Counted from the first letter of the stretch, positions 4,954-33,781 are shown. The stretch: 64,000 nt of DNA from Raillietiella orientalis (GCA_036172245.1 JAYWIR010000040.1:310001-374000); one strand, 5' to 3'. Program-made: numbers and translations. Notes: generated from the letters alone by a model not told the origin.

Positions 4954-5047
4954 NNNNNNNNNNNNNNNNNNNNNNNNNNNNNNNNNNNNNNNNNNNNNNN
5001 NNNNNNNNNNNNNNNNNNNNNNNNNNNNNNNNNNNNNNNNNNNNNNN
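4954..5047. other. Assembly gap (N run)
   Basis: Run of n characters. Confidence 1.
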
Positions 5048-5185
5048 AAGAGAAATCTGGCAACAGATATCTTCTGCATCCAGTACGGCAATCAAAGTCG
5101 ACACACGTCTGAAGATATCGTAGATGCCTTAGAAAGGCATTATACGGACCACTTTCGACGCGGACACCTGTGTCCAGCTACGGTA

Positions 5186-8100: not shown

Positions 8101-8880
8101 TCGATGGCGGAGATCATCTCCGCCATCGGAAAGCTCAGAAAGAGGAAAGCACCAGGGAAAGACGGTCTGCCCGTGGAGTGCTACCAAGGCTTCGTGGCGG
8201 AGATGGCCCCCCTGGTGCATCAGCTTTGCATGCTGATCCGAGAACAAGAGCACGTCCCCAAATCGTTCCGGTCAGCTAGAGTACGTCTCCTGCCGAAAGG
8301 AGGAGACAATCGCAACGTAGGCAACTGGCGTCCCATCACAGTAGTGAATGCGGATGCGAAGTTGCTTGCCAAGCTTTGGGCTGAGCGACTGGGACGGGTG
8401 GCGGAATCCGTGGTGAGTCCGGAGCAGACATACGCTGTTCCAGGACGATCCATGGAGGCCAACCTGTTCCTCGCCAGTACATGGTGGCAGTTGCAACAAA
8501 GCGAAGACCAGGGAGGTCAGGAGAATCCTGGATTCTCCTCTGACCATGTAGGGGACGCCCTTTATGGAAGAGCCGCGCCTGGAGCCCTTGCGGTCGCAGT
8601 CGATCTGCGTAAAGCGTTCGATTTCGTCGACCAGGAACTCCTTCTGGAGCTCCTGGAACGCTTGGGATTCCCGGCCGTCTTCCGGGCTTGCCTGCGCTCC
8701 TGCTGGCGCTTCGCTCTAATAAACATCACTTTTAGCGGGCGGCACGTGTACGGCGTGCCGGTTCGGCGTGGCATAAGGCAGGGTGACAGTCTGGGCCCCT
8801 TGCTCTTCAGCATCTACTTCGAGCTGGTGCTCAGGGCATACAGGGAGACTCTGGCAACCCTGCCAAGCTCATGTCCCGGC
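5186..8880 (+). mobile_element. Tx1-like retrotransposon C (second family): 5' UTR, ORF1, APE and RT, truncated just before YADD
   Basis: ORF1 in one frame 5226-6899 with stops at 5595 and 6180 (CGNCKTFGHLKK, CPTCGAKGHTKVVC). APE WNVNG/LQETH/GDFN/SDH at 6950-7600. RT APGKDGLP, WRPITVVNADAK, DLRKAFD, GIRQGDSLGP at 8100-8880. Confidence 0.9.
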
Positions 8881-10861: not shown

Positions 10862-10958
10862 AATACTATTTACCGGATTGCATCTGCTGCGCAGTTACGC
10901 AGTATAAATACACACTCCACACAACGTACATCTAGTCCTACCTTTAGTGAATTTCAAG

Positions 10959-12057
10959 ATGCCATACGCACTTTTTTTTAATTGGTGTTTTACACTCTGC
11001 AACTTCTCAGAAGATGAACTCAAGGAAATAAAAGACTGGTGCAGAAGCAACTGCTTCTTCGCGTGCGTCGGTAAATAAGTCGCAAAAATAGGGACGCCAC
11101 ATCTTCAGGGATATATTCAACTCAAAGAAACTAGGACTCTACCTCGGCTCAAACGCAAACCATTTCAAAAATCTCATTTGGAAAAAGCTAGAGGCAGTCC
11201 ACAGAGCAACATACGGTACTGCACCAAAGACAAACAAGCATGGACATACGGAAGAATAAATGACAGCAACGAACCTACAGACTACCAAGACCTAGTAAGC
11301 CCTTCAACCATAAAATACAAACTAACCATTTCAATCGTAGATTCTTCAATTAATAGAAGACGGAGCAGATGAACATTTCATCTTGAAGAACCATACCAAA
11401 TTGTATAGCAAAAACATCAACTTCGTGAAAGAATGCTTCAGATTAACACGAAGCCGAGCTCACCCTAACCCTTTAGCCAACCTACAATTGAAGGCATGGC
11501 AAATGGATATACTTCAAATTATACGACACAAACCAGACCTTCGAAAAATTCACTGGTTTTACGACCCGATAGGAGGTGTTGGCAAAACAACCATGCCCAA
11601 ATTCCTATACCTTAAAAAGGCAGCCATTTACATGCACTCACGTAAAAAGGCAGACGCCGCCCACATTTACAACGGCGAAAGGATCATCGTCGTCGACCTG
11701 ACGAGAGATAAGCAAGAACTAGTCCAATATGGCTTCATCGAGACTCTCAAAAATGGGATCATCTTCGATAGCAAATATCAAGGAAGCATAAAGTATTTTC
11801 AACCTCCACATATTCTGGTTTTCTCTAACTGGGAACCAAACTATGAAAAGATGAGTTCAGACAGATGGATAGTACGGAACATATCCACAACCAACAGTAC
11901 AGCTCTGGTTCCTTGGATGATGGATGATGGTGGTGTCATTCTCCCTTGGGCTTGCACTTCAAGCCCTAGTACAGCGCAAGCCCGCGACTCGCCAGATTCC
12001 TCATCATCCATAGTGTCACCCCTTTCCCCCTTTTTTGATGTAATAAACAAAACCTAA
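10959..12057 (+). pseudogene. rep: CRESS-virus Rep, copy 1; two exons (10959-11294, 11341-12057), about 350 aa, one in-frame stop at 11076
   Basis: RCR motifs WCFTL, PHLQG, YCTK. Walker A GGVGKT, Walker B IIVVDL, motif C VFSN, Arg finger SSDRW. The GTAAG...ACTAAC...TAG intron restores the frame. Confidence 0.93.
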
Positions 12058-12083
12058 CTTTTAGCTTTTTGTATTGCATTCAT

Positions 12084-12630
12084 TTAATATAAACCAACAT
12101 CTCTCAAGTGCTTAAACTCTATGTAGTATCTTCTCGTTATTCTGAATATGGGAAATCCTTTACTCAAAGTTCCGTTCTTTGGACAGATACCTGACTGACA
12201 ACCCAACTTCAAATCATCAGGAATATCCACACCTGACATATGCTTCAACACATGCATCCTGTGGAAATGCACACGACACAAAGTTTCTCCATCCAAAGTA
12301 GAGCCTTGCCAACTATCTATCCAAGGGAAACGCCTATATCTATACAGATTTCCTTTTTCCTCATAACGCGTTTCACGGATATAACCTTTAGAATAGAACC
12401 TCAATCCACGAACGCCAAAGTAACGATCAAAGCAACCAGAAGTTTCAGCGTGACCGGCTATCCGCTCGTCTACCTTACTATAAGGCATTCCAGTTAAGCT
12501 TTCAAAAAAATTGGCCCTGGTTAGGACTTTGATACAACATGTTCCGATAAGACACTTTCATTCCGAACTCTTCACCCATGTTGCCAATTGTTAAACCCAA
12601 AGACAAGGGCTCTACTTTCACAGACAGAGT
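12084..12630 (-). pseudogene. cap: CRESS-virus capsid, C-terminal half, copy 1
   Basis: ORF 12084..12488 plus upstream KVEPLSLGLTIGNM..MKVSYRNMLYQS align with the full-length Arg-rich protein at 24490-25421; convergent with rep. Confidence 0.8.
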
Positions 12631-12646
12631 TTTGCATGTCAGCGAA

Positions 12647-12681
12647 ATGCAATCTGGGTAATACTATTTACCAGATTGCAT
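12647..12681 (-). promoter_or_regulatory. Intact rolling-circle origin stem-loop with nonanucleotide TAGTATTAC (copy 2)
   Basis: Perfect 11-bp stem atgcaatctgg (12647-12657) / ccagattgcat (12671-12681) with a 13-nt loop; GTAATACTA at 12658-12666 reads TAGTATTAC on the minus strand. TATAAATA at 12701. Confidence 0.95.
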
Positions 12682-12761
12682 CTTCTGCGCAGTTCCCAAC
12701 TATAAATACCAACAAGCGGACAACCAAAGCCAAGTCTTACTTACTCAGAATTACCAGAAAG

Positions 12762-13471
12762 ATGCCATACGCACTCTTCTTTAATTGGTGTTTCACACTC
12801 CGCAATTTTACAGAAGATGACTAACAAGAAATCAAAGCATTTTGCCGTGCGAACTGTTTCTTCGCATGCATTGGAAGAGAAGTGGCAAAAACAGGCACGC
12901 CACATCTCCAAGGATATTTCCAACTCAAGGAACCGAGAACTATGCCAGGATTAAAACGCAAGACTTTTCAAAAAAGCCATCTTGAAAAAGCCAGAGGCAG
13001 TCCACAGAGCAGCTTGAGGTACTGCACTAAGGAAGACAAACAAGCATGGACGTTCGGTCGCATCCACGACACCAACGAACCGACGGACTACCAAGACCTG
13101 GTAAGCCAATCCTTTTCACCACTATATCTAATCATTATCTCCATTAGATATTACAACTAATAGAAGATGGAGCGCACGAGCATTTCATATTGAAAAATCA
13201 TACCAAATTTTATTATAAAAATATTAATTTTATAAAGAAATGCTTCAGAATTACCAGAAACAGAGCACACCCAAACCCACTAGCCAAACTCCAACTTAGA
13301 AGCTGGCAAATGGATGTACTGAAATTAATATGACACAGCCCTGACAACCGAAAAATCCACTAGTTCTTCGACCCAATCGGAGGGATCGGCAAAACAACAA
13401 TGGCCAAATATCTCTTCCTTAAAAAGGGAGCTATATATATGCACAGCTGCAAATAGGCAGATGCTGCACAC
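12762..13471 (+). pseudogene. rep: CRESS-virus Rep, copy 2; 3'-truncated after Walker A; intron 13101-13147
   Basis: MPYALFFNWCFTL, PHLQGY, YCTK, GGIGKT. Several stops (e.g. 13331, 13361) and frameshifts. Confidence 0.92.
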
Positions 13472-15635
13472 TTCCCGGTCGAACAGTGGAGGCCAACCTG
13501 TTCCTCGCCAGCACCTTTTGGCAGTTGCAACAACGCGAGGCTCAGCTAGGTCGGGAGAGTCCTGGACTCTCTACTGACCAAGGGGAGGGAAGAATAAGAG
13601 AAGCAGCGCTGGGAGCCCTTGCGGTCGCAGTCGATTTGCATAAAGCTTTCGATTGCGTCGACCAGGAATCCCTGGAGCTACTGGAACGCACGGGATTTCC
13701 GGCCGTCTTCCTGGCCTAACTGCGCTCCTGCTGGCGCTTCGCGTTTATCAACATTAATTTCAGCAGCCAGCACGTGTACGGCGTGCCGGTTAGTCGCGGC
13801 ATCCGGCAGGGAAACAGCTTCAGCCCCCTACTCTTCAGCATCTACTCTGAGTTGATGTTGAGGGCATACAGGGAGACTTTGACAACCCTGCCGAGCTCAT
13901 ATCCCGGCACGCCTGCCGTGTCGGCCTATGCCTACGACCTTATGCTCCTGCATCGCGGGTCCACCCCGGCATTGGCGCTCGAAGATTGCTTCGAGTTGCT
14001 TCGCCGTGGGAGGGGCCTCGAGATGAACTCGACGAAGTCGTCGTTGATACATACCGAAACGTCGCGGGCAGGACGGTCGGACTGAATCCGATTGCGGATC
14101 CCCACGGGTGAGTACATCAAGTACCTTGGCGTTCCGTTGGGGGACTTCTCATTGCAGAAGCCTGTTCCGACCGTCTCCAAAAGGTGGAGTTCGCGATCGG
14201 TCCATTCCGGGACGGATATTTTTATTTGCAGGAACGGGCCGCGGTGTGGAATGCCTTTGCAGCCTCCCTCCTTCGCCCCCTACTTCTTGTGTGCCCCACC
14301 CCTCCCCAAATTCGGAAAAGGACAAGAGGCCTCATTAGAAAAGCCCTCTGGGGCAACCGGAGGCCCCGCGTCCGGCTTAAAGACTTGTGCTCTCCACGCA
14401 GTGACGGTGGATTTGGTCTCCTGACCTTGAAGCGCGTGAAGCGTCAGCTCCAAATTAGCAAACATGCCCTTGTGGCAAAATATTGGACAGCGCCATGGTG
14501 TGCGCCCACACGACTCCTCGCCTACAGGGCAACCGGCTGCAACGGATTGAACTCAATCCTAGTAGCCAACGACTGTAGACTGAACATTGCGGATTTCCGC
14601 TACGGGACTTGGTGGCCCTAGTAAGGAGCAGCCGGTGGATCTCCTGCAGCCCCGGAAACTTGTCTACCTGGCTCCAGGAGTCCGTTTCCGCGTGGGCAAA
14701 AATCAACGGCTCCAGTGGTGTGGAATTCTCCAGCTTCCGTCGAGGCAGCAACGCTGGCCAGCTCCTGCGGGAGATTGTTTCCAAGCCACAAAAGCTTTTG
14801 TGGGCCTCGTTCACCCCCCTTGCCCCCGTGCTGCCCTCCCTTATAGAAGCCAGGGACAGCCAAGAGGAGGCATCGTATGAAGTGTCCTGCCTCATCAGAG
14901 GTAGGAAAAAACTGATGAAAGCGTGGACGTCCCGGGAACTAGCGGACGCTACAACCCCGAGTGTCCCGCCAAATGGAATTGTGCGCTGGGGCGAGCTGCT
15001 CGGCATGCCTTTGGAGGAGAAGTGGCCCCCGGCGTATTGGGACAGTGGCACTCTAGCTTTGGATTGGCAGGAGACGGCGCTGCTTGTGCTCCATTGGGTC
15101 TTTTAAGCAGAGCACGCCTGTCTCACTGGACATTGGAGAGATTGGATGCCCATTGTGCAGAGTGCGAGAAAAGGGAGACCTTCCCCGTTTAATAATCGAG
15201 TGTTGCCCTCCGCTTCATGTGGGATCGACTCTCGTCGGCCCTAAACTAACTGGTGGGCGACCCTAAAAATATTTTTCGTCGCCTCCTGATGCGGAACTCC
15301 CTGCCAGGTGCCGCGTGTGTTGCAATTCTCTGCTGCATACGGAGAATATTGGACAAGTGGAACGCATGAATAACAGGCCGCAGTAGTCGGAATGCCATCC
15401 ACTGGGCAATCTCCATGGATAGCTTCCCGTTTGAGCCGGCTAAGTAACATTCTGCCAGCACTTGTTTCTATGCAGAACCAGATGCAGTGGCCCCCGCACG
15501 GCTTACTGTGATCCTTTCCCTTCCTTCCCCCCCTAAATATTGTCCTCCAAGCTTTTTCTTTTTTTTTGTTTTTTTCTTTTCCCGTCCCCTTCGCCAGTAG
15601 AGAGGACCTTACCGGCATACTGGTCGGAAAGCTCA
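13472..15635 (+). mobile_element. Tx1-like retrotransposon E (family C), 5'-truncated RT, C-terminus and 3' UTR
   Basis: PGRTVEANLFLAST, DLHKAFD, GIRQGNSFSP, YAYDL (degenerate YADD), KYLGVP, GGFGL, CAEC..RET. T-rich UTR after the stop at about 15511. Confidence 0.88.
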
Positions 15636-15831
15636 AGTGCATAAAACAGTATGAACAATGTGTTCTGATTGGAACACAAGTACAGACGTTAGGACTATAT
15701 TATAAAATAGATAATACCTAGAGTATTGCTCCAATTTTAATGCACGCAACAAATTTGCTAAGCTAATTGCCTGCTCCCTATACGTATGCATCCAGGAACA
15801 ATTCACATTATCTTCATCTGAAGATGAACTA
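15636..15831 (-). pseudogene. cap: CRESS-virus capsid middle fragment (continuation of the copy 3 cap)
   Basis: DEDNVNCSWMHTY..LLRALKLEQYSRYY aligns with DGDHVNCSWMFTY..LLKKLDLAEFAKRY in the copy 4 cap. Confidence 0.78.
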
Positions 15832-18800
15832 TGCCAAGGGCGCCGCAAACGAGGCACGTGAAGACTGCGGGCCTTGTGTTGAACTTCCGGACTCGTGGGA
15901 TGAAGAGGACGACCTCTCCAGAGCGGCTGCCAGTCCCGCGACGACTCCCGCACGAGCTGGTAGCTCCGCTAGTGCCCCGCCACCCGAAGAAACCTCAACG
16001 CAAGCTGGCTCCCTGCTGGATGAAGAATGTGTGGTTGTACCCGATGCTTCAAGCCCGATAGCCGTGCTATCGCCGACGTCGGTGGGATTAGACCCCGTCT
16101 CCATCAAGGATGAGCCACCTGCGCCACCTCAACCTGTGGAGCGCGCACTCGACTACCACAAGCTGAGCCCGGAACTCGAAGAGTTTGTGTATCGTAGTGC
16201 AAGCCCCCCTATAGTGGAAAGCGTAGGAGTTCGCTAACTGTGTGGCTCCAGCCACTCAACCCTCACAGTGGCGTCACCATCGCAAATTGGGTTAGACATG
16301 TTAGGCCAGCTCTCTCCGGAGGAAACAATCACAGTGGTTGTCCCCTGTTCTCCACCCTCGCCCCCCACCGTCCACCCTGCATACGTCCGCTTACTGGAGA
16401 AAGGAGTCGCGAAGGGAAAGGGGCTGCGCCGGAGAAGCCTCCATCGGGAAAAAACAGGAACCAACGACGGCGGGAAGAAACTCTCGTTCGAAGACCCCGT
16501 AGTAAGTCCTAATTCTAAGCAAACAAAATCGCAACGAGAAGGCCGTGCTCGGCCGATAACACTCGACCCCGCACCCTTGGTGCCGCGAACGTCCGATTGC
16601 GTAAACTCCACTCTAACGCAAGACGCCGTACTGATAGTGCATTACCCTGCGCCAAATTGTCTAGCCTGCCCGCTACCGAGGTGCAGATGGAGCACCTCGA
16701 CACACCAAACCAAAAGCACGGTTGGATCACTGAAGCGCCACATTAGGACGTCCCACTGGATCCCTGTACAAGACGCGCACCTGGTGTGCAGAAAATGCGA
16801 CGTGCAAATCCCTAACCCAGTTTGGCGCCATCGATGTGCGCCGAGAATCACTCCGATCGTGCCATCTGCCCCACTTCTATGTCCGGAACGGAACTGTGGG
16901 CAAAGCTTCTACAATAAGAAAGCCTTGGCGAACCACACCCGCTGACACGACGCCATCAACAGGACCTCGGAGAGAACATACACGCGCGGGCTTCGGGTCC
17001 AGCAAACGGCTGAGAACGCGTGTCGAATCGATCCGCGGCCGAGCTCCCCTGAGTTATACGCAGGGGAAACTGTTCCTCCGATATATCCCGATCAGGCGAG
17101 CGAATGGCGCACGGTCCCCCACTCACAGCTGCTTAGCAGCCTTCAAGGTGCGAATGCCGGTGGGAAATTTACAGAACTGATCTGTCAGATATACTCCAGG
17201 AACACCACCCGGATTGCCACCAAAGAGGGGCTCTCAGCACCCATTGCCCTCGAAAGAGGGGTCAAGCAAGGTTGCCCCTGTCGGGCTTGCTGTTCAATAT
17301 CACACTAGAGCCTCTCTGTGTGTGTATCAAGAGCCAGGTGCCCAAAGCCAATGTATTGGCGTACGCGGATAACTTAGTCATCCTAACAAAGGATGCAGAG
17401 GAGCTTTAAAAAGCACTCGACTGTGCCAGCGCAATGGCCTCTCGACTTGGGCTGTCGATCAACGCCAGGAAGTGTGCATCGTTCCAATACGACCCGGGTA
17501 CTCCAAGAACTGTTGGACGCCAGCGATTCCGAGTGTCGGGTGAGCTCTTGCCCGCCCTCACGGACGTTGGCATCTACAGCTACTTGGGGAAACCAGTCGG
17601 CTTCGATGCCATCCACAGCGATGCGCTTGAAGCCGACATCCGGTCCAGCATTGTCACAATTTTGGAGGCACCACTAGCTCCGTGGCAAACGCTGGACGCT
17701 CTAAAAACGTTTATTTTCCCATCCTTCGTCCACCGCATGCGGATGGGCTCTAAGCCCAGGAGCTTCTGGAGTGGTTTGGATGAGGTGATTAAAAAAGCAT
17801 TGAAGGAAGACATCCTTCCGTTGACCCGGGCCTCTTCCAAAGAGTACCTCTACGGGTCTCAGAGATATGGTGGTCTAGGGTTGATGATCCTTGCCGAGGA
17901 GGCCGACATCATGGCCGTTGATTCAGCTTTTAAAATGCTGACATGCCCTGACCTGGCCATAAGAGAGATGGCTTGGGCCTCTCTCAATGAAACCGTCCGG
18001 AGGAAAGTGCGCCAGCAACCGTCTGACGCCTTGATATCTGGCTATATCAGCGGAGACATCGACCCACCCTTCCATCATCAGTCGGGAGATCTCACCGACT
18101 ATTGGTCGAGAGCTCGCGAAGCCTCGAAGAAGCTTGACCTACAGTGGTCCATCCGAGCAAACCAAGTCTCCATCAAACTATCTAACAGGACACTCCGACA
18201 GAATGATCGGAAAATAATAGCCCGGTCCATTCGGGGCCTAAAGAGGCTCCAGAGAAGCAACGTGTTGAGAAGCAAGCCGGACCACGGCCGTATCATGGAT
18301 TGCGTGGCCCTTCACCCAGCTTCCATGGCCTTTTTACATAGGCCCGAGCTCATTCGACACAGCAATTGGAAGTTTATCCATAGAGCTCGCCTTAATCAAA
18401 TGTTCCTTAACGGTAATCGGAAGCGACCAGGCTTCCACGAGGCCCGTAGGCACTGTCCGTATCCGAAGGAAACATTATCCCACGTGCTATGTCATTGCAC
18501 CAAGCATCTTGGAACGTCGATCACAGCTAGGCATAATGCCGTCCTAGGCATGCTGGAGCATTCTGCCCGACCGAAATGGGGCCACTTCTCGGTCGATAGG
18601 ACAGACCTATCCATCGATAGCAGCCTGCGACCTGATATCGTCGCATCAGATGGACAACACATGATCATCGTGGACGTGTGCATCCCCTTCGAGAACCGGA
18701 AGCAGGCGATGGATGCAGCGAGAACACATAAGATCAGCAAATATACCGACATCCGCAGGAAGTACGAAGAACAGGGCTACAACGTCAAAGTTGAGGCCTT

Positions 18801-19494
18801 TGTGATCGGATCGTTAGGCAGTTCGCACCCGAAGAACGACTCGGTCCTAAGCTACCTGGGTCTGAGCAGCCACGAAATAAAGGCGATTCGCCCTAAGCTC
18901 GTGTGCTCTGTGATCCGGGCAGCCAGGAATATCTACGCCGAACATGTCTCATCTGAGTCAGCCGAGCGTAGTATAGCCCCGACCGTACCATGGTGCCGTG
19001 CGGCTTTTCAAGACCTGATCCAGTTATAAAAAACAGCCTGTAAGACTGAGTCCTCGAAAAGCAAAAGTCGACTGCTTAGGATCAAGAAGACCCTTTACCT
19101 ACCCTTGTGCCATGTGCCTCGAGTCCGCACCGTGCGAGAAATAAAAGGCAAATATCGCCTGGGAGAATCGCGCGGTCGGACTTCGTACCCTTCTGTCCCA
19201 CAAGCGAAAGCTCAGGAACTGCTCGCGATCACACGATCGGCAAGAGCAACGGAAACACCTCCCTTTTTTGTAAATCTCGGCCACGTAGGAATAAAGGCAA
19301 GTTCTTGCCCAGTCGAACTACGTGGCCGAGACTTCAAGACATATGTCTTTTTCCCCTCAGACAAGATCAGAGCTACGCTGGTCCTTTGTGTACTCTCAGT
19401 CACTGTACAGAACGAATTGTGCGAGCATCGTGCCCGTTGTACTCAATTCTTTGTAAATCAGGGTTACAATAAAAGTTACTTATATAAAGTTAAA
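15832..19494 (+). mobile_element. RLE-type (NeSL/Utopia-like, R2 superclade) non-LTR retrotransposon, internally deleted
   Basis: N-terminal zinc fingers (CPLPRC..LKRHIRTSH, CRKC..HRC, CPERNCGQSF..LANH). RT remnant GVKQGCP..YADNL at 17250-17400. ORF 17434..19029 carries YLGKP, GGLGL, WKFIHRARLN, ETLSHVLCHC, RHN, RPDIV, IVDVCIPFE, K..KY. AATAAA at about 19468. Confidence 0.88.
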
Positions 19495-19746
19495 TATAGT
19501 CCTTTCTGACGCAAAATGCACAGCTCCACCAGCTTCCACACGCTCAACTAACACACGCAAGGAACGACCTACTCTCCAACGAGGGTTTTTAATTAATTTG
19601 ACATTACGACGACGCCTATTCCAACGATGACGATGCTTAAAGGTACCATAACGCGAGCACAATCTGGTCAACCGTGGACGCTTTAATATTCTCGAACCAG
19701 ACACGCCTTTCCTTTTCTGAGCAGCAGACCGACGTGCTGTTGCCAT
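19495..19746 (-). pseudogene. cap: CRESS-virus capsid N-terminus (Arg-rich arm), copy 3
   Basis: MATARRSAAQKRKGV..YGTFKHRHRWNRRRR..NPRWRVGRSLRV, homologous to the copy 4 N-terminus; divergent from origin and rep. Confidence 0.85.
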
Positions 19747-19984
19747 TCGGCTACTAGATAGCCTACTGAAGATTTTTCTTAATCCCCCTCCCTTTCATAC
19801 TCCAGCTGGTGGCCCACGTCTAACCGACTTTCAAAGCCTTTCACGAGGTCCGGTTTCACCAGACACCCACTTCTGGAAATCTTATCGCTTTTCCGCGTTT
19901 TTAAGTCTTCCACAACCGCGGACAATAGCCAGACACTAAAAATAAATTTACTTGCATAATTTTCCACGGTGTCGGATGATTACT

Positions 19985-20053
19985 GCGTAATCTGAGTAAT
20001 ACAGACCAGATTGCACTCAGCAAAAAATGCTGCGCAGTTAGTCAGTATATAAA
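19985..20053. promoter_or_regulatory. Degenerate origin stem-loop (minus-strand nonamer CTGTATTAC) and rep promoter, copy 3
   Basis: Arms gcgtaatctg (19985-19994) / cagattgcac (20007-20016) with 2 mismatches, GTAATACAG at 19996-20004, ctgcgcag at 20030, TATATAAA at 20046. Confidence 0.8.
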
Positions 20054-20117
20054 CCACCTACAGCATCCGGACCGCAGTCTCTTCCAGTGAATTACCTACA
20101 GTGAATTAATCTCCAAA

Positions 20118-21175
20118 ATGACTTCACCATGCACTACACTTCAAATGGTGCCTCACCCTATGCAAATACACTGAGGAGGACTTCAAGACCATAAAGCACT
20201 TGTACCGCTCCAACTGCTCCTTCGCCTGCATCGGAAGGGAAACCGCAGACAGTGGAGCCCCTCACCTACAGGACTACATGGAGTTCAAAGAACCAAGAAC
20301 CATGCCGGGATTACGCCACAAACCTTTTCATAAGACACCCTTAGAAAAAGCCAAAGGCCCTCCACAGAGCAACATAAGGTAATGCACGAAGCAGGATACA
20401 GATGTATGGACTTTCGGGGCCATCAACGAACAGCCAGAAGCAAAATCTTATCAAGAACAAGTAAGTTTACCTCGAACATAACTACTACTCTACTAACTCC
20501 TTTCTAGATCCTACAACTTATAGAAAGTGGAGCAGATGAGCTCTACATCCTCAAGCATCACACCCAATTTTATTCAAAAAATATAAACTTTACCAAAGAG
20601 TGCTTCCGATTCTCCAGAACACGTAAACACACCAACCCCCTAGCCGGACTCCAACTCAAACAATGGCAGATGCAAATTATAAATCTCATCTGACACCAGC
20701 CCCATAAAAGAAAAATCTACTGATACTTCCACAAGGTTGGAAACACTGGCAAAACGACGATGGCCAAGTTCCTCTTTCTCAAAAAAGACGCCATATATAT
20801 GCACAGCTGCAAAAAAGCTGATGCCGCTCACATATATAATGGTGAGCGTATAATAGTATTCGATTTCACAAAAGACAACATGGAGCACATACAGTACGGC
20901 TTCAGTGAACCCCTAAAAAATGGAATCATCTTTGATTCCAAATATCAAGGAAGTATCAAATACTTCCGAAATCCCCATATTACAGCATTCGCCAACTGGG
21001 AGCCAGATTACAGCAAGCTCTCTAGAGATAGGTGGATTGTTCATAACATCTCCGCTAGTCTCAGCAAGACCAACTGGCAAGTAGGAGAGGAAGGAGACAT
21101 CCTCCCATGGTCTCTATCTTCAAGCTCTAGTCCAGATAGAGACCCTGATTCGCCTGCCTTCTCCCAACAAACTTT
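20118..21175 (+). pseudogene. rep: CRESS-virus Rep, copy 3; near full length, decayed; intron 20461-20507
   Basis: WCLTL, PHLQD, *CTK, GNTGKT, IIVFDF, AFAN, SRDRW; GTAAGT..TACTAAC..TAG intron. Confidence 0.92.
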
Positions 21176-21189
21176 GAGTAACGGAATAG

Positions 21190-21607
21190 GATATTCCGTA
21201 CTTCGTCCTGCAGATCCAGACGGTTATTGTCTTGCTTCGCCATTCTTCGCTTGTTTACACCATCACAGAATTCCAGATGATTGGAAATCCTCAAGAACAG
21301 TGCTTATCCCAAAACCAGGATCATCCGACCTCCTAAACATCTCGCAATTCCAACCTATTTCAATTTCCAATACGATAAAGTTTTTTCAAAAATCGTCGCT
21401 TGTCGATTGCGATCGTGGATTATCAGAAATGGCATATTAGGTCCCCACCAAAAAAGTTTTATCCCATTCGACGGTGCTCGAACAAAACTTTATCCTCGCT
21501 TCGTCCATCGAGCATTCAAGAGTTCATCATAAAGATTTAGCAATTGTATGGATTGATATAAAAGATGTGTTCATATCTATTCCGCATAGCTTAATACTAA
21601 ATTCTCT
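21190..21607 (+). mobile_element. Short RT fragment of an RLE-clade (R2/NeSL-like) retrotransposon
   Basis: DPDG, IPDDWKSSRTVLIPK, FQPISISNT, HQKSFIPFDG, LAIVWIDIKDVFISIPH across frames. Confidence 0.75.
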
Positions 21608-22830
21608 ATCCTCGCCGTCGCCCTGAACCTTTTAGTCGTTTTCCGTCGGGATCTCGGAGCTGGCCTTCGCCTTGGTGGCGGAAGTTACCTCCTTCGCTGC
21701 AGCTAGTGCTGGTAGCTTTCTCCTTTTCTTTGACGCGCGCTTTCTCGCGTTTCGGGCGGACGTGACACGGACTAAATAGTGGGGGCACACCCGACTACTG
21801 TATCCCGTTTCCTTGCACTTCTGGCACTCCACGTTCGGACACCTCATCTTGAAGTGTACAACACTGCTGCAGCAGCCGCAGAACCTCGGTTTCCCCACGT
21901 ACCACACGTCAATGGATTCACTGTTACGCACAGTTTGTAGGGAAACTTGCAGCCTCCGCGAACCGTGACTCGCGTTGCAGCGAGACCTCCCAGCATACCA
22001 TCGTAATCTACGAACCAAGTGGGCTTACCCCACAGCGCATTTTTTTTTTCTTTTTTTTAATAAAAGCCCCGGCTCACCCGGATGAAAAAACCCACAGCGC
22101 TTATACGGTTGCAAATTTATCAACTTCGTTCCGGACAGACTCCTTCGTCATGCGGAACGTTATACCGGTCAGTTGAATGATTACCGACCGGTCCTGTGTT
22201 ACCGGGAGAAGCCTCCGACTTCCCATCAGTACAGGGGTTCTCAGGAGTCTCTGCACAAGAGTTGCCTCCTGCAGATTACCTCCACGAATTGACCGCCGCT
22301 TCCTATGGACATAGCCAGAAGCTCCTCTTTAACGCCCACCTCGCATCGCTTGCGAGAAGGCACGCGCGCTGTCTGGAGAATGCAGCCCACCTACCTTAAA
22401 TAGGAGGGGTGGGTTATACTCCTCCTCCAGGTGGGCACGCATCTCCGCCATACCAGCAGGCGTAGGTGCGACAGCCACGGCTTTCCAAGCCTTGGGTGGG
22501 GCCGGGGACGCATCAGTGGGCTCCACTTCCATCTCCTCCGTTGGCGATGAGGTCATCGCCTCCAGTTCTCCACTGGTTGTGGTGTCAGGCATTGCTGCCT
22601 AAACCAGCACCGACAACATACACAAACGCAGGAAAACGGAAACTCAGGAACGACCATAGAACACGTCCGCTCGGGGCTCCGGATTCTCAACGACTGGGAC
22701 CCCATGAAGGCTGCGGTCCGCGAGTACTGCGAGCTCCGCTTGAAACGCCTGCTCCCCGAATTTGGAGTTTCCACCTAGATACGCGAGGGGTATTAAACTC
22801 TGCAAAACGTGGTAAGAGACCCTACTAATG
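21608..22830 (-). mobile_element. Tx1-like retrotransposon F (family C): 5' UTR and ORF1, 3'-truncated
   Basis: 22329..22592 (EEEYNPPLLFKVG) and 21632..22018 (DVWYVGKPRFCGCC..CQKCKETG) are homologous to C ORF1. Confidence 0.85.
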
Positions 22831-22844
22831 GCCACTACAACACC

Positions 22845-23910
22845 GGACCTGCCGAGACGCCGGGTCGCAGACAAGCGTGACTCCTCGGCAGTCAAAATGG
22901 ATGGGGGGAAAAACAAAAAGTAAAAATAAAGAAAACCAAAAAAAAACATACTTTCAAGGATTAGGAAGGGTTCACTGTTCATTGGGAGGACGGAGCATCC
23001 TTTGAAGGATGCCCTCGAGGTCCTTCAGCTCCTGTCCCAGCTGACGTCATCCCGCCACTCTCTCTATAAAGCGAACAGCATAATGGATGACATCCATGTC
23101 GCTTGCATCAACTTAGTCGTGGGCATCACTCCAGACCGTCACCATCCCTCGGATGCAGCAGTGCTGCCGGGGCTCCAGCTAGTCACAGGGCATCCTGAAC
23201 GAGGAGAAGCCGAAAAACGTCTCTGGGCTGACTGCCCACCGGGATCCGTAGCGAGGAACCAAGACGCTCCCAGAGAGGTCGAAGGGCAGCAAAATCAACA
23301 ATAAGGTGGGAAAGGGTTCCATTCCGCTCCACGCACCTGATGCAGTGAAGATTCACTCGACCCCGCGTCCAGTGATGGCGGCGTGCGTTGCAGGGTAGAC
23401 CCCAATGCAACAGGAGAAGCGCCGAGTCCTGCCACTTCAGGGGCAAGGATCCTCGAACCGTTTGAAACCGGTGGCCACTTCAGGTCATCCATCGGGATGC
23501 CGAGCAGCTCGCCCTATCTCAGTAATCCTCGCGGGACGACACTTCGGGTCATGGCGTCGGCCAACTGTCCCATGTCCAACCGCTCATCTTCTCTCTGCGG
23601 CAGGAGAATTGCCACCTAGGCATGCGGCTGCTGGGGAGCGCTCTCCACGGGAAGGGCATCGCCGTAGCTAGGGGGTCGTCTCTGCCCATGTGCTCCTCGC
23701 GGGACACTGCGGTATCTTCCGCAGAGTGCAGCGAGAGTTGGCGCCGCGTTGCAGGCAGTTCCACATCTCGTGGTTCCTCTCATTTAGCTTCGCCCACGTG
23801 CCAGTAGTCTCCTCCAGCCATGTGGTGGAGTTGGCCGGACTGCAGACCATCCAGCCGTTCTCCTTAGTTATGATGGCTATGCTTCCAAGAAGGCCGCATC
23901 TGCAGATCTG
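22845..23910 (-). mobile_element. Tx1-like retrotransposon G (family C): ORF2 C-terminus and 3' UTR
   Basis: PLKWQDSALLLLHWGLPCNAR..CIRC..TLSHLIVD; T-rich UTR on the minus strand at 22900-22970. Confidence 0.85.
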
Positions 23911-24002
23911 TCGAAAACCCAACGCTCGACAGCCCCTGCAGGAGACAATCAAGAAGCCGCGGAAGTTTCAGTGGGCTTCCTTGACCCCCTCTGCCAACCC
24001 CC

Positions 24003-24490
24003 TATAACCCCGTTGGTGGAACGGGGAAAACAATCATGGCGAAATTCCTTTATCCGAAAAAGGGTGCCATTTACATGCACTCATGCAGGAAAGCAGACGC
24101 CGCCCATATATACAACGGAGAACGTATCATCGTAGTTGTCTTCACCAGAGACACACAAGAGACTGTCCAGTATGGCTTCATCGAAACTCTCAAAAATGGA
24201 ATCATATTCGATTCCAAATACCAAGCTTCCATAAAATACTTTCAAACGCACACATCATCGTTTTCTGCAACTGAGAACCAAACTACGACAAAATGAGCAA
24301 CGACAGATGGACAGTCAGGAATATTTCCAAAAATGATGCCAACAGACTCACTTCTTGGATGATGGATGAAGACGGTGCCATTCTCCCTTGGGATTGCACT
24401 TCAAGCCCTAGTACAGCGTAAGCCCGCGACTCGCCTGAGTCGTATCCTTCCACATTGTCACCTCCCTCCTTTTTTTTGATGAAATAAACA
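24003..24490 (+). pseudogene. rep: CRESS-virus Rep helicase half, copy 4
   Basis: YNPVGGTGKT..HSCRKADAAHIYNGERII..LKNGIIFDSKY; 3' end closely matches copy 1. Confidence 0.9.
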
Positions 24491-25421
24491 CTTATCTCAC
24501 ATATCTCATTTTTTATTTGTATAAGCCTGTCTATTAGGTGTTTGAATACAACATAGTACTTGTGGGTTACTCTGTATATCGGAAACCCGTTTGTCATTCG
24601 CCCGTTCTTTGGACGAATTCCTGCTTGGCAACGTTCCTTCAACTCGTCTGGGATATCTACACCAGACATATGTTTCATGATATGCACACGGTTGAACCAA
24701 ACATTCCCGTCTGTTTCATAATCCAGCGTATTCCCATCACTACACTCTATCCAAGGACATCGCCACGATCCAACACAACACCGTCTACCGACACTCTCTT
24801 CGTCAAGTATGCTCCTCAAACCACGTACACCAAAATAACGAGCAAAACAACCAGACGTCTCTTCGTGCCCCCCCCTATCACAGCTTCCACATGATCATAA
24901 GGTTTTCCATACATTGATGTGAAATGCTCGCCCTGAGGCGCAGATTGATACAACATATTCCTGTATGACACTTTCATGCTAAACTGTTCCGCCATATTCC
25001 CTGTTGTCAAACCCAAAGACATGGGCTCCACCTTTGTCGCGCAACCCTTTATCTTCACATATCTATAGCGCTTTGCAAATTCTGCTAGATCTAACTTTTT
25101 TAACAAAGCACGTATTCGAACATAAAATTCCAAATATGTGAACATCCAACTACAATTCACATGGTCGCCGTCTGCTACACGTAGCGAAGAATAATTAGAT
25201 GCTCCCTGCGTCATATCCCTCACAACTACTCGCAAACAACGACCTACACGCCAATTAGGATTTCTCTATATCCTAGGTCGATGGCGACGCAAATTCCAAC
25301 GGCGCCTCCTTTTGAACGTGCTATATCCTCTAGGACGACGCGATAAACGACGCCGCTTCACGCCATACGACGATCCAACACGTTTCCTCTTACGCGAGTG
25401 AACCGCACGAGGTGTTGCCAT
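24490..25421 (-). pseudogene. cap: CRESS-virus capsid, full length (about 300 aa), one stop and frameshifts, copy 4
   Basis: ATG at 25421 gives MATPRAVHSRKRKRV..FKRRRRWNLRR; continues as ORFs 24816..25235 and 24283..24819; C-terminus YYVVFKHL matches copy 1 YYIEFKHL. Confidence 0.85.
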
Positions 25422-26289
25422 TCCGCTGCTTGACAGCGTACTTTGCCAACGTGCTGTCTTCCTTCAAGAACAATAGGAGCAGCAACTAGCGAGCATTCTG
25501 GGCAGTGCCCTACCTCGTCCGAGGCAGGAGAAAACCGCTGAAGGCATGGACGACTCCGGAGTTAACGGACGCCGCTACCCCGAGCGTCCCATCTAACGGA
25601 CTTGTGCGCTCGGGAGAGCTGCTCGGCATACATCCAGAAAAGGTGAAGTGGCCCCCAGAGTGCAGGGATAGTCAAACCTTGACCCTGGAATGACAGGAGA
25701 CGGCGCTGCTAGTGTTCCATTGGGGACTCCTTTGCAAAGCACGCCTCTTCCATTGGACATCAGGGACGGTGCATGCCAATTGTGCAGGGTGCGGGAACAT
25801 GAGACCTTCCCCCACCTTATCATAGAGTGTCGCCTTCCGACTCATTAGGGATCGACTGTCGGCGATCTTGAAAATTACCGGGAGCGACCCGAAGGACATT
25901 TTCCGTTGCTTCCAGATGCAGGACGCCTGTCAGCAGCCGCGTGCGGCAGTTCTCTGCGTGGGATCCTGGCAAAATGGATTGCGTCCAAGAGAGGACATAA
26001 CAGCCGGAACGCCAACCACTGGAAGGCTCTCAACATTGAGAAAGCTTCCCGATGCTCTCGGCTAACATCACTACGTCCGCAAATTGTGTGCATCCTGAAC
26101 AGGAGGCAGAGAACCACTCCGAGCGAACAGTGATCCCTTCCAGCCCTCCCTTCCCCAAAAACATTTCCCTCCTTCGGTAGCGGCGCGTCCAGATAGGCAG
26201 AATCACGTGTTCTGCCAGCACTAATTCAACAAAACGAGACCTTTTTATAAAACCTTAATTAAAAAATTTCATAAATAACCCGGCATATT

Positions 26290-31310: not shown

Positions 31311-33781
31311 TTAGACCCGAAGACTCCTTCGAACAACCCAGATAAACTGAAATTTTCCTAAACCATCACTTCGGATAAGTTACTTTTCTTCAACGCATTG
31401 TATACCCTATTTTCTTTTTGACAGCAATGCTGTGATTTCCTTAATAAGAATGAAGGCATTTACAAAACTACTAGTAGTAAATCCAGTCATCATTATCTAA
31501 AACCATAATCCAAACAACCAAAAAGTGCAATAGAAGGTTTAGGTATTTGATCAGGCAAATAAATAAATGGCATGAATAGTCGGATAAATGCAAACAAGTA
31601 ACCAAAAACAAGAGCAAAATAAACTGAAACGGCAAAGTTCAAGAAAATCACAAACGAATTACCTGCGAATAATTTTGAAACAAGTAGATCCTATCTGTGT
31701 CTTCCGATGACAATTCGACCTTACACTTAATAACTGTTTTAGTGATGTACCACCGAAGCAGATACAGTTTGTAATAAGTTGCGCCTTGAATAGGGAGGAC
31801 TAAAAAAGGTTGTGAATGCATCATAAAGCCCTTTCTTCTTGAAAAGAAATTACACCATGCTCACTCTCCGCGCAATATTCTCAATCAGTTTACAAATAGT
31901 TCTGAACTGCTGCTTGAGGATGAGAGTCCAAGATTTTATGATTCCGAAAACATAAATGCCTCAGAAGTTTAGACCCTTAAAGATAGGCAACATAAAAACT
32001 TTTATCAAGAGTGCTTGTCCCACCTAGGTTTCCTTTCATGTGCTTGGGATTGCTTCTAATATCATTTTCGCACCAAACCATTATTCACTTATTCAAGGAA
32101 GCTAGTTACTTCACATATTTACAAAGATATGAAAATTATTCAGCACCAGATTTCGGAGCACCTGGATTCATATTCCACATATTTAGAAAACAACTTACAA
32201 AATGCAATAAGAAAAGCGATGTCCAAAAATTTGGATAATTCTGACATACATGTACAAAGTTGCAATTGCCATTCCACTAGAACTTGAACTGTTACGCGAA
32301 TTTCGTGAACATACATTTCTAAATAAGTGTGTACAGCACCTGCTATACAGCCAAAGCAATTTCTGCAAAATCTCTGTCGAACTGAGCCTTTAATAGACTG
32401 TCTGGATCTTAAGTATCATATTGAAAAAAAAATTCAGATTTTTATTAAAATGCATATTAAAGTGCCTTTTTAATATACATTTTCATAAAAATCGGTTCAT
32501 TAAACATGAAAGAAAACTTAAGATTCCACCTGTATTCCGATAACGGACTAAGTTCAAAGATAACGACGATCAAGGGAACAGGCATTTTGGCAGATTCCAT
32601 TTCACAAGAACTATTTCTGCAGCTTTTGACAATTTGCATGCGGATTACAAAAAATTACAAGCACCAACTATCGTGAACATCGATACAAAAGTATTTTATG
32701 CATCAATACAGAATGTGCAATTTCATAAATCAAGAGTTGGTTTGAAAATCTCTGCATCACAACTAGGAATCGACGAGAGCACTGTAAATAGTCCGAATAG
32801 TTCTTAATTCCTTGTACACCTTGCACACTTGCACTTAAAAGATTGCTCATATGTTTTAGCCATGCTGCCCTCTTCCACAGGCATCAGGCACTCGATCTGC
32901 ACCACAGCAGTTTTATACTCTTCACTACACGTCTAATCAAATTCATATGAACTTACTGAATTTTTATGATGAACGCATAAAACACACCGAGTACCTGGTT
33001 TCAAGAATGTGCATTCATGAGCAGACCATGCAGACCTTCAGTAAGTGATTTTTTTTTCCAGCACCAACTCAAATTGCATTTATAATATAATGCAAGTTAT
33101 CAAACAGAAGTTCATATTTCAGTGATATGTATTCACAATTCAAATGAAATTAAAAAACGAACTCAGAGATATATTCAATATTTCAACTTCCTTTTTGTTG
33201 GGCACACATGAAAATTAAAGTTAGACTAGATCAGATCCAAGACTGATGGCGTTCATACATTATTGAAAACAGTATAAATCATAATCAATCAAACCTTTTA
33301 ACAAACAGGTAAAAAGTTAACATTCCAACTATTAAAAATGGTAACAATTACACTCATTTCCATGAATCTCTGGACAACCACAAAAGGACCAGGCACATGA
33401 CCAAAGAATGGAAAGTCCACAGTTTATAGAACATTGAAAACTAGGGCAAGACATCCTATTCGAAGATCGCATGTTTTACACTAAGGACATCACTTTCCTT
33501 AGTGAATGCATATATTCACCAAATGAAGGTGCATGGAACAAATTCCTAAAAATCTGAGAATGCTCCAAATCATGCAACACAACGAAAACTAATGGACTAC
33601 CTACTGAAAAGGTGACATTGGCTAGTTAACTTTTGCCAAAGTACTTGCTGATACACTACCAAATATGCTACTTAAATTCATGTAAAGAAACGGATGCAAG
33701 CCATAAGTTCAACAACAACCTGTAGTAGTAGCCACAGACCTCACTGTAGGTAATGCAACAATCCAGTACAGACTCAGGATT
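31311..33781 (-). CDS. Possible 3' exons of an unidentified host gene
   Basis: Four AG/GT-bounded segments (33781-33720, 33035-32995, 31799-31663, 31346-31311) splice in phase to NPESVLDCCITYSEVCGYYYRSAWSAHECTFLKPVLPIQGATYYKLYLLRWY..FIWVVRRSLRV*. No homologue recognised and one donor is weak. Confidence 0.3.

What the first reader, a model, noticed from the sequence alone, without database searches (positions are those of the whole stretch)
10862..25440. Reconstructable CRESS-DNA virus of about 2.4 kb with an unusual combination of traits
Seen: overlapping pieces give origin, rep (about 350 aa, spliced), a short 3' intergenic region with AATAAA, cap (about 300 aa, Arg-rich arm) and about 250 nt back to the origin. 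The nonamer is on the cap strand. Known: that ambisense layout with a rep intron is cyclovirus-like, but the helicase signature (W.YDP.GG.GKT, K.AD..H.Y, YG.IE.LKNG....KY, VFSN..P....S.DRW) resembles nanovirus/alphasatellite-type Reps rather than Circoviridae. Inference: an unclassified lineage, and germ-line copies identify this animal as its host.
Basis: partly seen in the sequence, partly recalled or inferred. Interest (0 to 1): 0.8.

Follow-up and report, generated by a model that had tools for sequence, protein, structure and literature searches.

The report
Decayed CRESS-virus insertions, several lineages
A stretch of this eukaryote's chromosome holds broken, head-to-tail remnants of several related small circular DNA viruses, cut up by jumping genes; they tie a virus group so far known only from environmental samples to a host lineage, but the kind of finding is familiar.

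Summary
Window 10862-25443 carries five same-orientation fragments of CRESS-DNA virus genomes: stem-loop origin with TAGTATTAC on the Cap strand, Rep of 112+238 aa split by a 46-47 nt GT..AG intron, 26-nt 3' spacer, Arg-rich Cap of about 300 aa. All are pseudogenes, and LINE copies separate the three blocks they form.

Two parts of the interpretation need correcting.

1. The pieces are not overlapping copies of one virus. They differ two to four times more at third codon positions than at first or second, so they diverged as functional viruses. There are at least three lineages, and any "reconstruction" would be a chimera.

2. The trait combination is not unusual. All five named relatives among the best 120 profile hits belong to Anicreviridae (Mulpavirales, the order of Nanoviridae). 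Two classified genomes of that family and a third described in print have the same Cap-strand nonamer layout.

The window Reps are more distant from the named genera (27-41% identity) than those genera are from each other (38-53%). This points to an undescribed lineage in or beside Anicreviridae.

The left end of the array lies exactly at the Rep nick site.

The Cap fold could not be tested (pLDDT 34.5), and no close exogenous relative was found.

The parts
10862..12659 (+). Fragment A, a 1798-nt unit. It runs from the right half of the origin loop through a TATA-like box (10903-10911), Rep exon 1 (10959-11294), the intron (11295-11340), Rep exon 2 (11341-12057), the 26-nt spacer and the 3' two-thirds of Cap on the minus strand (12087-12633), to about 25 nt of left intergenic region, the left stem arm and the first loop bases. 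Lesions: one in-frame stop in Rep exon 1 (11076-11078), one frameshift in Cap within an A/T run near 12505-12515, and about 0.6 kb missing (Cap N-terminal third plus most of the Cap-side intergenic region).
12649..12679 (-). Origin stem-loop spanning the A/B junction. The stem is 10-11 bp and the loop holds TAGTATTAC (12658-12666, minus strand). The canonical nick between T7 (12660) and A8 (12659) is recalled knowledge of HUH Reps, not tested here.
12660..13474 (+). Fragment B, lying head-to-tail after A. It holds the origin right half, Rep exon 1 (12762-13100), the intron (13101-13147) and the first 109 codons of exon 2 (13148-13474). It has four in-frame stops and is cut off by a 5'-truncated LINE.
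13475..15695 (+). LINE-derived spacer. Its RT part is 81% identical to 8453-8886, and a further part is 74% identical to 25504-25957.
15696..15830 (-). Fragment E, a middle piece of Cap (about residues 84-128 on fragment D's numbering). In Cap coordinates it abuts the Cap piece of fragment C to within a few codons, so E and C are one Cap gene split by a LINE.
15831..19482 (+). Retrotransposon inserted into that Cap gene. It has a zinc-finger-like ORF (16238-16942) and an open 539-aa ORF (17410-19026). The C-terminal CCHC motif and the restriction-like endonuclease motif look R2-like, but that reading is recalled. Pfam found no family for the 539-aa ORF, and for 16238-16942 only a zf-C2H2 match below the gathering score (E 0.014).
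19483..21170 (+). Fragment C. It holds the Cap N-terminal arm on the minus strand (Met at 19746, running down to 19483), an intergenic region, a degenerate stem-loop (about 19985-20020), Rep exon 1 (20128-20460), the intron (20461-20507) and exon 2 (20508 to about 21165). It has three in-frame stops, and no in-frame start codon at the position where A and B start. Its right end is cut off by LINE sequence.
21171..23984 (.). LINE-derived spacer. It holds a gag-like CCHC ORF on the minus strand (21632-22598). 22842-23909 is 87% identical to 47075-48140 in reverse orientation.
23985..25443 (+). Fragment D. It holds Rep from the Walker A box to the end (24003 to about 24478; in-frame stops and one frameshift) and the whole Cap on the minus strand (25421 down to about 24524). 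Cap has one in-frame stop at 25266-25268 and one frameshift in a C/G run near 24868-24875, and the stop codon found at this position in A is absent. The fragment is cut off about 22 nt upstream of the Cap start by LINE sequence.
33630..33891 (+). Possible sixth, much more decayed Rep helicase trace. Two collinear weak HMM hits (HMM positions 201-229 and 271-290; i-E 0.22 and 0.023) have the spacing expected for a continuous helicase.

Best explanation
The locus is a cluster of endogenous viral elements: DNA copies of circular Rep-encoding ssDNA virus genomes of about 2.4 kb that entered a chromosome of this eukaryote's ancestors and have since decayed.

The source viruses had these features:
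- an ambisense layout, with Rep on one strand and an Arg-rich Cap on the other;
- a rolling-circle origin (a stem-loop with TAGTATTAC on the Cap-sense strand);
- a Rep mRNA that needed removal of a 46-47 nt spliceosomal intron between the HUH nuclease domain and the SF3 helicase.

Their nearest classified relatives are Anicreviridae (order Mulpavirales), but they are more distant from the named genera than those genera are from one another.

The fragments come from at least three different virus lineages (A, B, C; D is nearest to A), not from one insertion that was later copied. Entry was as DNA, because the intron, both genes and the origin are present. One array end sits exactly at the Rep nick site, which suggests (inference) that a Rep-nicked linear replication product was captured. 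LINE retrotransposons later inserted into and between the fragments.
For: Virus identity:
- PF02407 matches.
- 7546 library proteins match Rep exon 2 at E <= 0.001, the best full-length ones at 1e-36 and 35-46% identity.
- Walker A, Walker B and motif C positions are invariant in the alignment with 15 relatives.
- The origin stem-loop is strong.

Family:
- Of the best 120 profile hits, 8 carry a name from a source; 5 of these name a virus, and all 5 are Anicreviridae. The other three are generic 'hypothetical protein' labels.
- In the HUH-domain tree the three window copies form one clade (SH-aLRT 100). That clade sits inside an 8-row set with Ketkevirus and Pekavirus (SH-aLRT 96).
- The helicase data do not reject that grouping (AU p 0.41).

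Different viruses:
- The share of sites that differ at codon positions 1/2/3 is 0.18/0.09/0.39 and 0.21/0.11/0.46 for A-B, 0.28/0.20-0.24/0.58 for A-C, 0.13/0.13/0.44 for A-D, and 0.32/0.24/0.54 for Cap A-D.
- pN is 0.11-0.26 against pS 0.62-1.03.
- The introns are only 52-58% identical, while the first 50 nt of the origin are 88% identical.

Decay:
- In-frame stops, frameshifts and truncations occur in every fragment.

Chromosomal context:
- The spacers between fragments are LINE copies with paralogues elsewhere in the window.
- There is no N run between the fragments and the ENTPDase-like and WD40 exons.

Nick-site end:
- A-to-B homology starts at 10862 = 12660, the base that pairs with T7 of the nonamer, and the bases upstream do not align.
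Against: - No outgroup families were available, so the family boundary is untested.
- In the helicase tree the window clade sits in the half without named Anicreviridae (split support 82) and is sister to the unnamed P0054.
- Window-to-named identities (27-41% HUH, 30-38% helicase) are below the inter-genus range (43-53% and 38-47%).
- Cap has no detectable relative. Its predicted structure is unusable (pLDDT 34.5), so 'capsid' rests on position, size, the basic arm and codon-position bias.
- Third-position bias would also arise if the element spread within genomes as a selected mobile element.
- Whether the host is an animal rests on weak clues: an ENTPD7-like exon whose nearest ESM clusters are mostly chordate, and LINE content.
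- The nick-site claim holds for one boundary only. The A/B switch between viruses could lie at A's deletion junction near 12630-12636 instead.
Confidence: 0.82

Rival explanations
1. One virus integrated once, possibly as a concatemer. The fragments are later local duplicates that decayed neutrally, so together they give one virus genome.
For: - All five fragments have the same orientation, and A and B lie head-to-tail.
- The fragments overlap so as to cover one genome map.
Against: - Neutral decay changes the three codon positions alike. Here third positions differ 2.4 to 4.3 times more often than second positions in every pair, in Rep and in Cap.
- Synonymous sites are near saturation, while pN is 0.11-0.26.
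- Pairwise distances are unequal: A-B 74%, A-D 74%, A-C 64% nucleotide identity.
Confidence: 0.06
2. The element is not, or not only, a virus. It is a Rep-encoding element that multiplies within the genome, with the HUH Rep cutting and joining at the origin as in rolling-circle transposons. Diverged copies then pile up in a transposon-rich region.
For: - One fragment end lies exactly at the nick site, and fragment A spans nick to nick.
- The fragments lie in a nest of LINEs.
- Lineages of mobile elements also diverge under purifying selection.
- Eukaryotic HUH Rep transposons exist (PMC10288648; title and abstract seen in the listing).
Against: - A second gene with a basic N-terminal arm was kept under selection.
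- The architecture and nonamer match free circular genomes of 2.1-2.3 kb from viromes.
- The other fragment ends are set by LINE insertions, not by nick sites.
- Copy number in the genome could not be measured, because no genome is held.
Confidence: 0.08
3. The source is a cyclovirus-like member of Circoviridae whose helicase merely looks odd.
For: - The layout is type II with TAGTATTAC on the Cap strand, and Rep is spliced.
- The nuclease domain hits circovirus Rep structures at 7e-13 to 5e-11, better than nanovirus ones at 1.5e-4 to 2.2e-4.
Against: - Rep exon 2 gives no hit to the 314-aa PCV2 Rep chain at E <= 1, although exon 1 finds that same chain.
- No Circoviridae name appears among the best 120 profile hits.
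- The Anicreviridae Rep P0187 shows the same PDB pattern.
- The Cap pieces have no Pfam match at E <= 0.01. That the Pfam library includes the circovirus capsid family is recalled, not checked.
Confidence: 0.03
4. Free viral DNA contaminated the assembly or was misjoined to host sequence.
For: None beyond the general risk. A 94-base N run lies at 4954-5047, outside the region.
Against: - Every fragment is broken by in-frame stops or frameshifts.
- One Cap gene is split by a 3.65-kb retrotransposon.
- The spacers have paralogues elsewhere in the window.
Confidence: 0.01

Closest known systems
Anicreviridae (Cressdnaviricota; Arfiviricetes; Mulpavirales), e.g. [quoted passage not shown]
   Same: - They are the nearest named Reps, and the HUH domain nests among them.
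- Genomes are 2.1-2.3 kb, ambisense, with the nonamer stem-loop on the strand opposite Rep (L001, L016; Tentweb spider virus: 2127 nt, TAGTATTAC, type II, PMC6186406 Table 3).
- The pattern against solved structures is the same.
   Different: - Identity to the named genera is only 27-41% (HUH) and 30-38% (helicase), against 38-53% among those genera.
- Rep is unspliced in L001 and L016 but carries a 46-47 nt intron here.
- Cap shows no similarity to any ORF of the 80 related contigs.
- These are chromosomal, decayed copies, not free genomes.
Cyclovirus (Circoviridae)
   Same: - Type II layout with TAGTATTAC on the Cap strand.
- Rep introns occur in some members (recalled).
- Arg-rich Cap arm.
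   Different: - The helicase is unrelated at the sequence-search level.
- The Walker A box reads GG.GKT rather than the circovirus G..G.GKS type (the circovirus motif is recalled).
- The genome is larger (about 2.4 kb against 1.7-2.1 kb, recalled).
- The Cap pieces have no Pfam match.
Nanoviridae / Alphasatellitidae
   Same: - Same order for Nanoviridae.
- The motif positions are conserved across relatives.
   Different: - Those are plant agents with about 1-kb one-gene components (recalled). Here Rep and Cap lie on one contiguous unit (fragment A).
- The nuclease domain matches nanovirus structures far less well than circovirus ones.
Endogenous CRESS-virus elements in eukaryote genomes
   Same: Rep-derived pseudogenes in chromosomes have been used to infer hosts. 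PMC7493932, PMC9615429 and PMC10193959 were seen as titles and abstracts in the listing. PMC6186406 was seen as passages.
   Different: - This cluster covers the whole genome map: both genes, the intron and the origin.
- It mixes several diverged lineages in one orientation.
- It has one end at the nick site.
- I did not read those papers in full, so I cannot say whether such clusters are already described.

Membership tests
Cressdnaviricota (CRESS-DNA viruses) | Rep with an HUH nuclease domain (motifs I-III) fused to an SF3 helicase (Walker A, Walker B, motif C) | tested here: met
   PF02407 at E 3.6e-15 and 2e-16. Motifs CFTLCN, PHLQGY and YCTK, and GGVGKT, IIVVDL and VFSN, are read in fragment A. 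G78, G81, K82, D119 and N163 are invariant with 15 relatives. 7546 library hits.
Cressdnaviricota (CRESS-DNA viruses) | Stem-loop origin with a NANTATTAC-type nonamer in the loop | tested here: met
   TAGTATTAC at 12658-12666 (minus strand), the only exact match in the window. The stem-loop folds at -13.1 kcal/mol, z -5.9.
Cressdnaviricota (CRESS-DNA viruses) | Capsid protein with a jelly-roll fold | tested here: inconclusive
   The AlphaFold2 model of the Cap read-through (X at each break) with the window's own copies as alignment has mean pLDDT 34.5 and pTM 0.18, so it was not searched against fold libraries. Indirect support: a basic arm with 22 of 51 R/K and codon-position bias.
Anicreviridae | Rep groups with the family's members in a phylogeny | tested here: inconclusive
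   HUH tree: the window clade lies inside a set with Ketkevirus and Pekavirus (SH-aLRT 96). Helicase tree: the clade lies outside the half with named members (split support 82), but AU p 0.41 does not reject the grouping. No other families were in the trees. Identities fall below the inter-genus range. I did not see the ICTV demarcation criteria.
Anicreviridae | Genome of about 2-2.3 kb, ambisense, with the nonamer on the strand opposite Rep. This is as seen in three members, not an official criterion. | tested here: met
   L001 (2237 nt) and L016 (2257 nt). Tentweb spider virus: 2127 nt, type II. The window unit is about 2.4 kb with the same layout.
Circoviridae (Cyclovirus) | Rep helicase and whole Rep related to circovirus or cyclovirus Reps | tested here: not met
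   Exon 2 does not match the full-length PCV2 Rep chain 7lar at E <= 1, whereas exon 1 does at 4.9e-11. None of the 5 virus-named hits is Circoviridae.
Circoviridae (Cyclovirus) | Cap of the circovirus capsid family | tested here: not met
   No Pfam family at E <= 0.01 for five Cap pieces.
Nanoviridae / Alphasatellitidae | Multipartite or satellite components of about 1 kb with one gene each (recalled) | tested here: not met
   Rep and Cap lie tail to tail, 26 nt apart, on one contiguous fragment in both A and D.
Endogenous viral element | Viral sequence embedded in host chromosomal DNA and no longer coding | tested here: met
   In-frame stops and frameshifts occur in all fragments. LINE insertions lie within and between them. 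Eukaryotic exons lie on the same gap-free stretch.

The most novel reading that the evidence does not exclude
The cluster records repeated capture of different related viruses at one chromosomal site, in one orientation. Two routes are possible. In one, the viral Rep acts at its own nick site, producing Rep-nicked linear products or Rep-joined hetero-multimers. In the other, incoming circular replicative forms recombine with an EVE already resident at the site, a Campbell-type insertion. Such a site could then serve as a small-RNA-producing memory locus against this virus group. Either route would be a defined integration mechanism for CRESS viruses in animals, and it would give a host for an orphan lineage at or beyond the edge of Anicreviridae.
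Probability: 0.2. Interest if true: 0.7.

Novelty: new member of a known kind. Interest (0 to 1): 0.45.

Why it matters
- Anicreviridae and the many unnamed Reps around it are known from viromes only. One review table lists their hosts merely as 'Invertebrates, Vertebrates' (PMC11945456, passage seen).
- Chromosomal copies that carry a spliceosomal intron, a TATA-like box and AATAAA signals show that viruses of this lineage replicated in nuclei of this eukaryote's ancestors. They did so more than once and as several lineages.
- The finding also warns against treating clustered EVE fragments as parts of one genome.
- The nick-site boundary and the uniform orientation give a testable lead on how CRESS DNA enters chromosomes.

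Tried and rejected
Searches for close relatives:
- A word-indexed protein search with Rep exon 2 gave no hit. The same search with the Cap alignment also gave none.
- Single-protein scans for Rep found nothing in viral contigs or metagenome contigs.
- Single-protein scans for Cap found nothing in viral contigs or metagenome contigs.
- The Cap alignment was too variable for a pattern scan.

Cap:
- tblastn of five Cap pieces against 80 related viral contigs gave nothing better than E 0.099.
- The ESM Atlas gave no usable hit for the Cap C-part.
- The Cap structure prediction had pLDDT 34.5, so no fold search was made.

Sequencing runs and genome:
- No public run was listed for 10700-13600 and no RNA holder was listed. 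Read laying was therefore not used, and expression, splicing and circular forms remain unexamined.
- No whole genome is held, so copy number is unknown.

Rep introns in relatives:
- My script flagged 18 of 69 contigs as having a non-contiguous Rep. Inspection showed that several of these are artefacts of contig wrap-around or of my stop count, so I make no claim on intron frequency.

Host clues:
- The WD40 exon gave a sub-threshold SCAP Pfam hit (51 bits against a cut-off of 100). PDB hits were only generic WD40 proteins, so I dropped the SCAP label.
- Host introns in that gene are 0.4-1.8 kb, so the 46-47 nt viral intron does not mirror them.

Other:
- A second AU test on the wider Anicreviridae set did not finish.
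- Earlier findings of the scan: nothing on record.

Full report
**What is there**

A six-frame reading of 9-27.5 kb, a repeat search and tblastn of the pieces against the window show five fragments of one kind of small ambisense genome. All have Rep on the plus strand.

- A: 10862-12659
- B: 12660-13474
- E: 15696-15830
- C: 19483 to about 21170
- D: 23985-25443

An HMM made from 15 database Reps, with no window sequence in it, finds the four Rep-bearing fragments (A, B, C, D) at i-E 4e-68 to 3e-10. It also finds two weak collinear hits at 33630-33891, which may be a sixth, older trace.

**Anatomy**

In fragment A the order of features is as follows.

| Feature | Coordinates | Source |
|---|---|---|
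| Right half of the origin loop | from 10862 | |
| Two CGCAGT repeats and a TATA-like box | box at 10903-10911 | |
| Rep exon 1 (112 codons; PF02407 at E 3.6e-15) | 10959-11294 | |
| Intron, 46 nt | 11295-11340 | |
| Rep exon 2 (238 codons, open) | 11341-12057 | |
| AATAAA | 12042-12047 | |
| Spacer, 26 nt | 12058-12083 | |
| Cap 3' two-thirds, minus strand | 12087-12633 | |

Evidence that the intron is real:
- A, B and C all have GTAAG at the start, CTAAC or CTAAT about 15-20 nt before a terminal TAG, and lengths of 46, 47 and 47 nt.
- The interior is only 52-58% identical between copies.
- The external HMM runs without a gap from exon 1 (to position 116) into exon 2 (from position 112-115).

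Other features:
- Fragment D gives the whole Cap of about 298 residues when read with X at its stop and its frameshift. 22 of its first 51 residues are R or K.
- Fragment C gives the Cap start (19746), about 240 nt of intergenic region and a degraded stem-loop.
- The A/B junction holds the intact stem-loop, with a stem of 10-11 bp (-13.1 kcal/mol, z -5.9). Its loop carries the window's only exact TAGTATTAC, on the Cap-sense strand.

**State of the copies**

Every fragment is broken.

- A: one in-frame stop in Rep exon 1, one frameshift in Cap, and about 0.6 kb missing (the Cap N-terminal third plus most of the Cap-side intergenic region).
- B: four in-frame stops, and cut off after codon 109 of exon 2.
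- C: three in-frame stops and no in-frame start codon at the position where A and B start.
- D: lacks the 5' half of Rep. Rep has in-frame stops and a frameshift. Cap has one in-frame stop and one frameshift.

The spacers between fragments are LINE sequences with paralogues elsewhere in the window. Further LINE ORFs with APE and RT domains lie at 520-8937.

In Cap coordinates E and the Cap piece of C abut to within a few codons. They are therefore one Cap gene split by the 3.65-kb retrotransposon at 15831-19482.

No N run lies between the fragments and the ENTPDase-like exon (39007-40047) or the WD40 exons (56446-59421). These are chromosomal insertions of some age, not free virus.

**The fragments are different viruses**

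If the copies were duplicates of one insertion, they would differ equally at the three codon positions. They do not.

| Pair and region | Share differing, position 1 | Position 2 | Position 3 |
|---|---|---|---|
| A-B, Rep exon 1 | 0.18 | 0.09 | 0.39 |
| A-B, Rep exon 2 | 0.21 | 0.11 | 0.46 |
| A-C, Rep exons 1 and 2 | 0.28 | 0.20-0.24 | 0.58 |
| A-D, Rep exon 2 | 0.13 | 0.13 | 0.44 |
| C-D, Rep exon 2 | 0.14 | 0.20 | 0.57 |
| A-D, Cap C-part | 0.32 | 0.24 | 0.54 |

- Nei-Gojobori proportions are pN 0.11-0.26 against pS 0.62-1.03, so synonymous sites are at or near saturation.
- Most of the divergence therefore arose while both genes were functional, which means in replicating viruses.
- Protein identity between A and C is 55% in the nuclease domain and 69% in the helicase part. 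That is about the spread seen between genera of the nearest family.
I did not build one.

**How the DNA got in (inference)**

- The intron, both genes and the origin are all present. This excludes reverse transcription of an mRNA and points to capture of viral DNA.
- Homology between A and B begins exactly at 10862 = 12660, the base that pairs with T7 of TAGTATT/AC. The upstream bases do not align.
- HUH Reps cut between positions 7 and 8 of the nonamer (established knowledge, recalled). The left end of the array is therefore the 3'-OH end of a Rep-nicked virion-sense strand. A random break would fall on that bond about once in 2400.
- Only this one boundary can be assigned to the nick. The change from virus A to virus B could instead lie at A's deletion junction near 12630-12636.
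- All five fragments point the same way. That fits a head-to-tail multimer later broken up by LINEs, or successive insertions by recombination with a resident copy. I could not tell these apart.

**Relatives**

- An exhaustive HMMER search with Rep exon 2 found 7546 proteins at E <= 0.001.
- The best hit, P0001, is a protein with two helicase repeats that one source labels as from a bacterial MAG. Its score is the sum of two stretches at 40% identity.
- The next hits are ordinary full-length Reps at 1e-36 and 35-46% identity.
- A profile search listed 120 proteins, 8 of which carry a source name. The 5 names that identify a virus are all Anicreviridae, from five genera. The family belongs to Mulpavirales together with Nanoviridae, Metaxyviridae and Amesuviridae. 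This explains the 'nanovirus-like' helicase signature.
- In the nuclease-domain tree (80 rows) the window copies form one clade (SH-aLRT 100). That clade lies inside an 8-row set with Ketkevirus and Pekavirus (96) and inside a 17-row group holding all five named genera.
- In the helicase tree (98 rows) the window clade (98) is sister to the unnamed P0054 (94). It lies in the half without named members, but that split has support of only 82.
- An AU test does not reject the nuclease-tree grouping on the helicase data (p 0.41). There is thus no evidence that this Rep is a chimera.
- Against solved structures, the nuclease domain matches circovirus Reps (7e-13 to 5e-11) better than nanovirus ones (1.5e-4 to 2.2e-4). 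The helicase does not match PCV2 Rep at all. The Anicreviridae Rep P0187 behaves the same way.

**The trait combination is normal for this group**

- L001 and L016 encode the Rakkovirus and Otevirus Reps at 100% identity. Both carry the nonamer stem-loop on the strand opposite Rep.
- Among 80 related IMG/VR contigs, the stem-loop is opposite Rep in 30, on the Rep strand in 20, and was not found by my script in 30.

What does differ:
- The window lineage is more distant from the named genera (27-41% nuclease, 30-38% helicase) than those genera are from each other (43-53% and 38-47%).
- Rep is unspliced in L001 and L016 but carries a very short intron here.
- Cap has no detectable relative.

**What stays open**

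- Family membership needs reference sequences of the other families, which I could not obtain.
- The Cap fold is untested.
- Expression, small RNAs, circular forms and copy number could not be examined.
- The host is a eukaryote with long introns, an ENTPD7-like gene and LINEs. 'Animal' is likely but rests on weak clues.

**Verdict**

This is a real and well-preserved cluster of endogenous CRESS-virus fragments from an undescribed lineage in or beside Anicreviridae. It is a new member of a known kind. The cluster has two features worth following up: several virus lineages at one site in one orientation, and one array end at the Rep nick site.

Noticed in passing
window 33630-33891 (+), perhaps from 33453: Two collinear weak matches to the Rep helicase HMM (positions 201-229 and 271-290; i-E 0.22 and 0.023), plus weak tblastn matches. 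They lie in AT-rich sequence 8 kb beyond the cluster and may be a much older Rep remnant.
   Followed up: partly
window 15831-19482 (+): A retrotransposon with an open 539-aa ORF (17410-19026). Its C-terminus has a CCHC motif followed by an RPD...D..E-type endonuclease motif, which looks R2-like (recalled). Pfam finds no family in this ORF. The element is less decayed than the Cap gene it splits.
   Followed up: partly
window 520-8937, 9208-10771 (-), 21632-22598 (-), 26851-28029 (+): A nest of LINE fragments. APE and RT domains are found by Pfam. Three copies of a gag-like ORF with CCHC knuckles lie in both orientations. The GC content is 52-62%, against 31-42% in the genic part of the window (30-44 kb).
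   Followed up: partly
protein P0001 (database hit, not in the window): The best library hit to the Rep helicase is a 354-aa protein with two tandem helicase copies on a 3.9-kb contig, labelled by one source as from a Methylococcales MAG. It looks like another tandem CRESS remnant, possibly mis-binned eukaryotic or viral DNA.
   Followed up: no
window 39007-40047 (-) and 56446-59421 (-): Host genes: a 347-codon GDA1/CD39 (ENTPD7-like) exon, and a WD40-repeat gene with introns of about 0.4 and 1.8 kb.
   Followed up: partly
window 4954-5047: A run of 94 N, the only assembly gap in the window. It lies inside LINE sequence, 5.8 kb left of the cluster.
   Followed up: no
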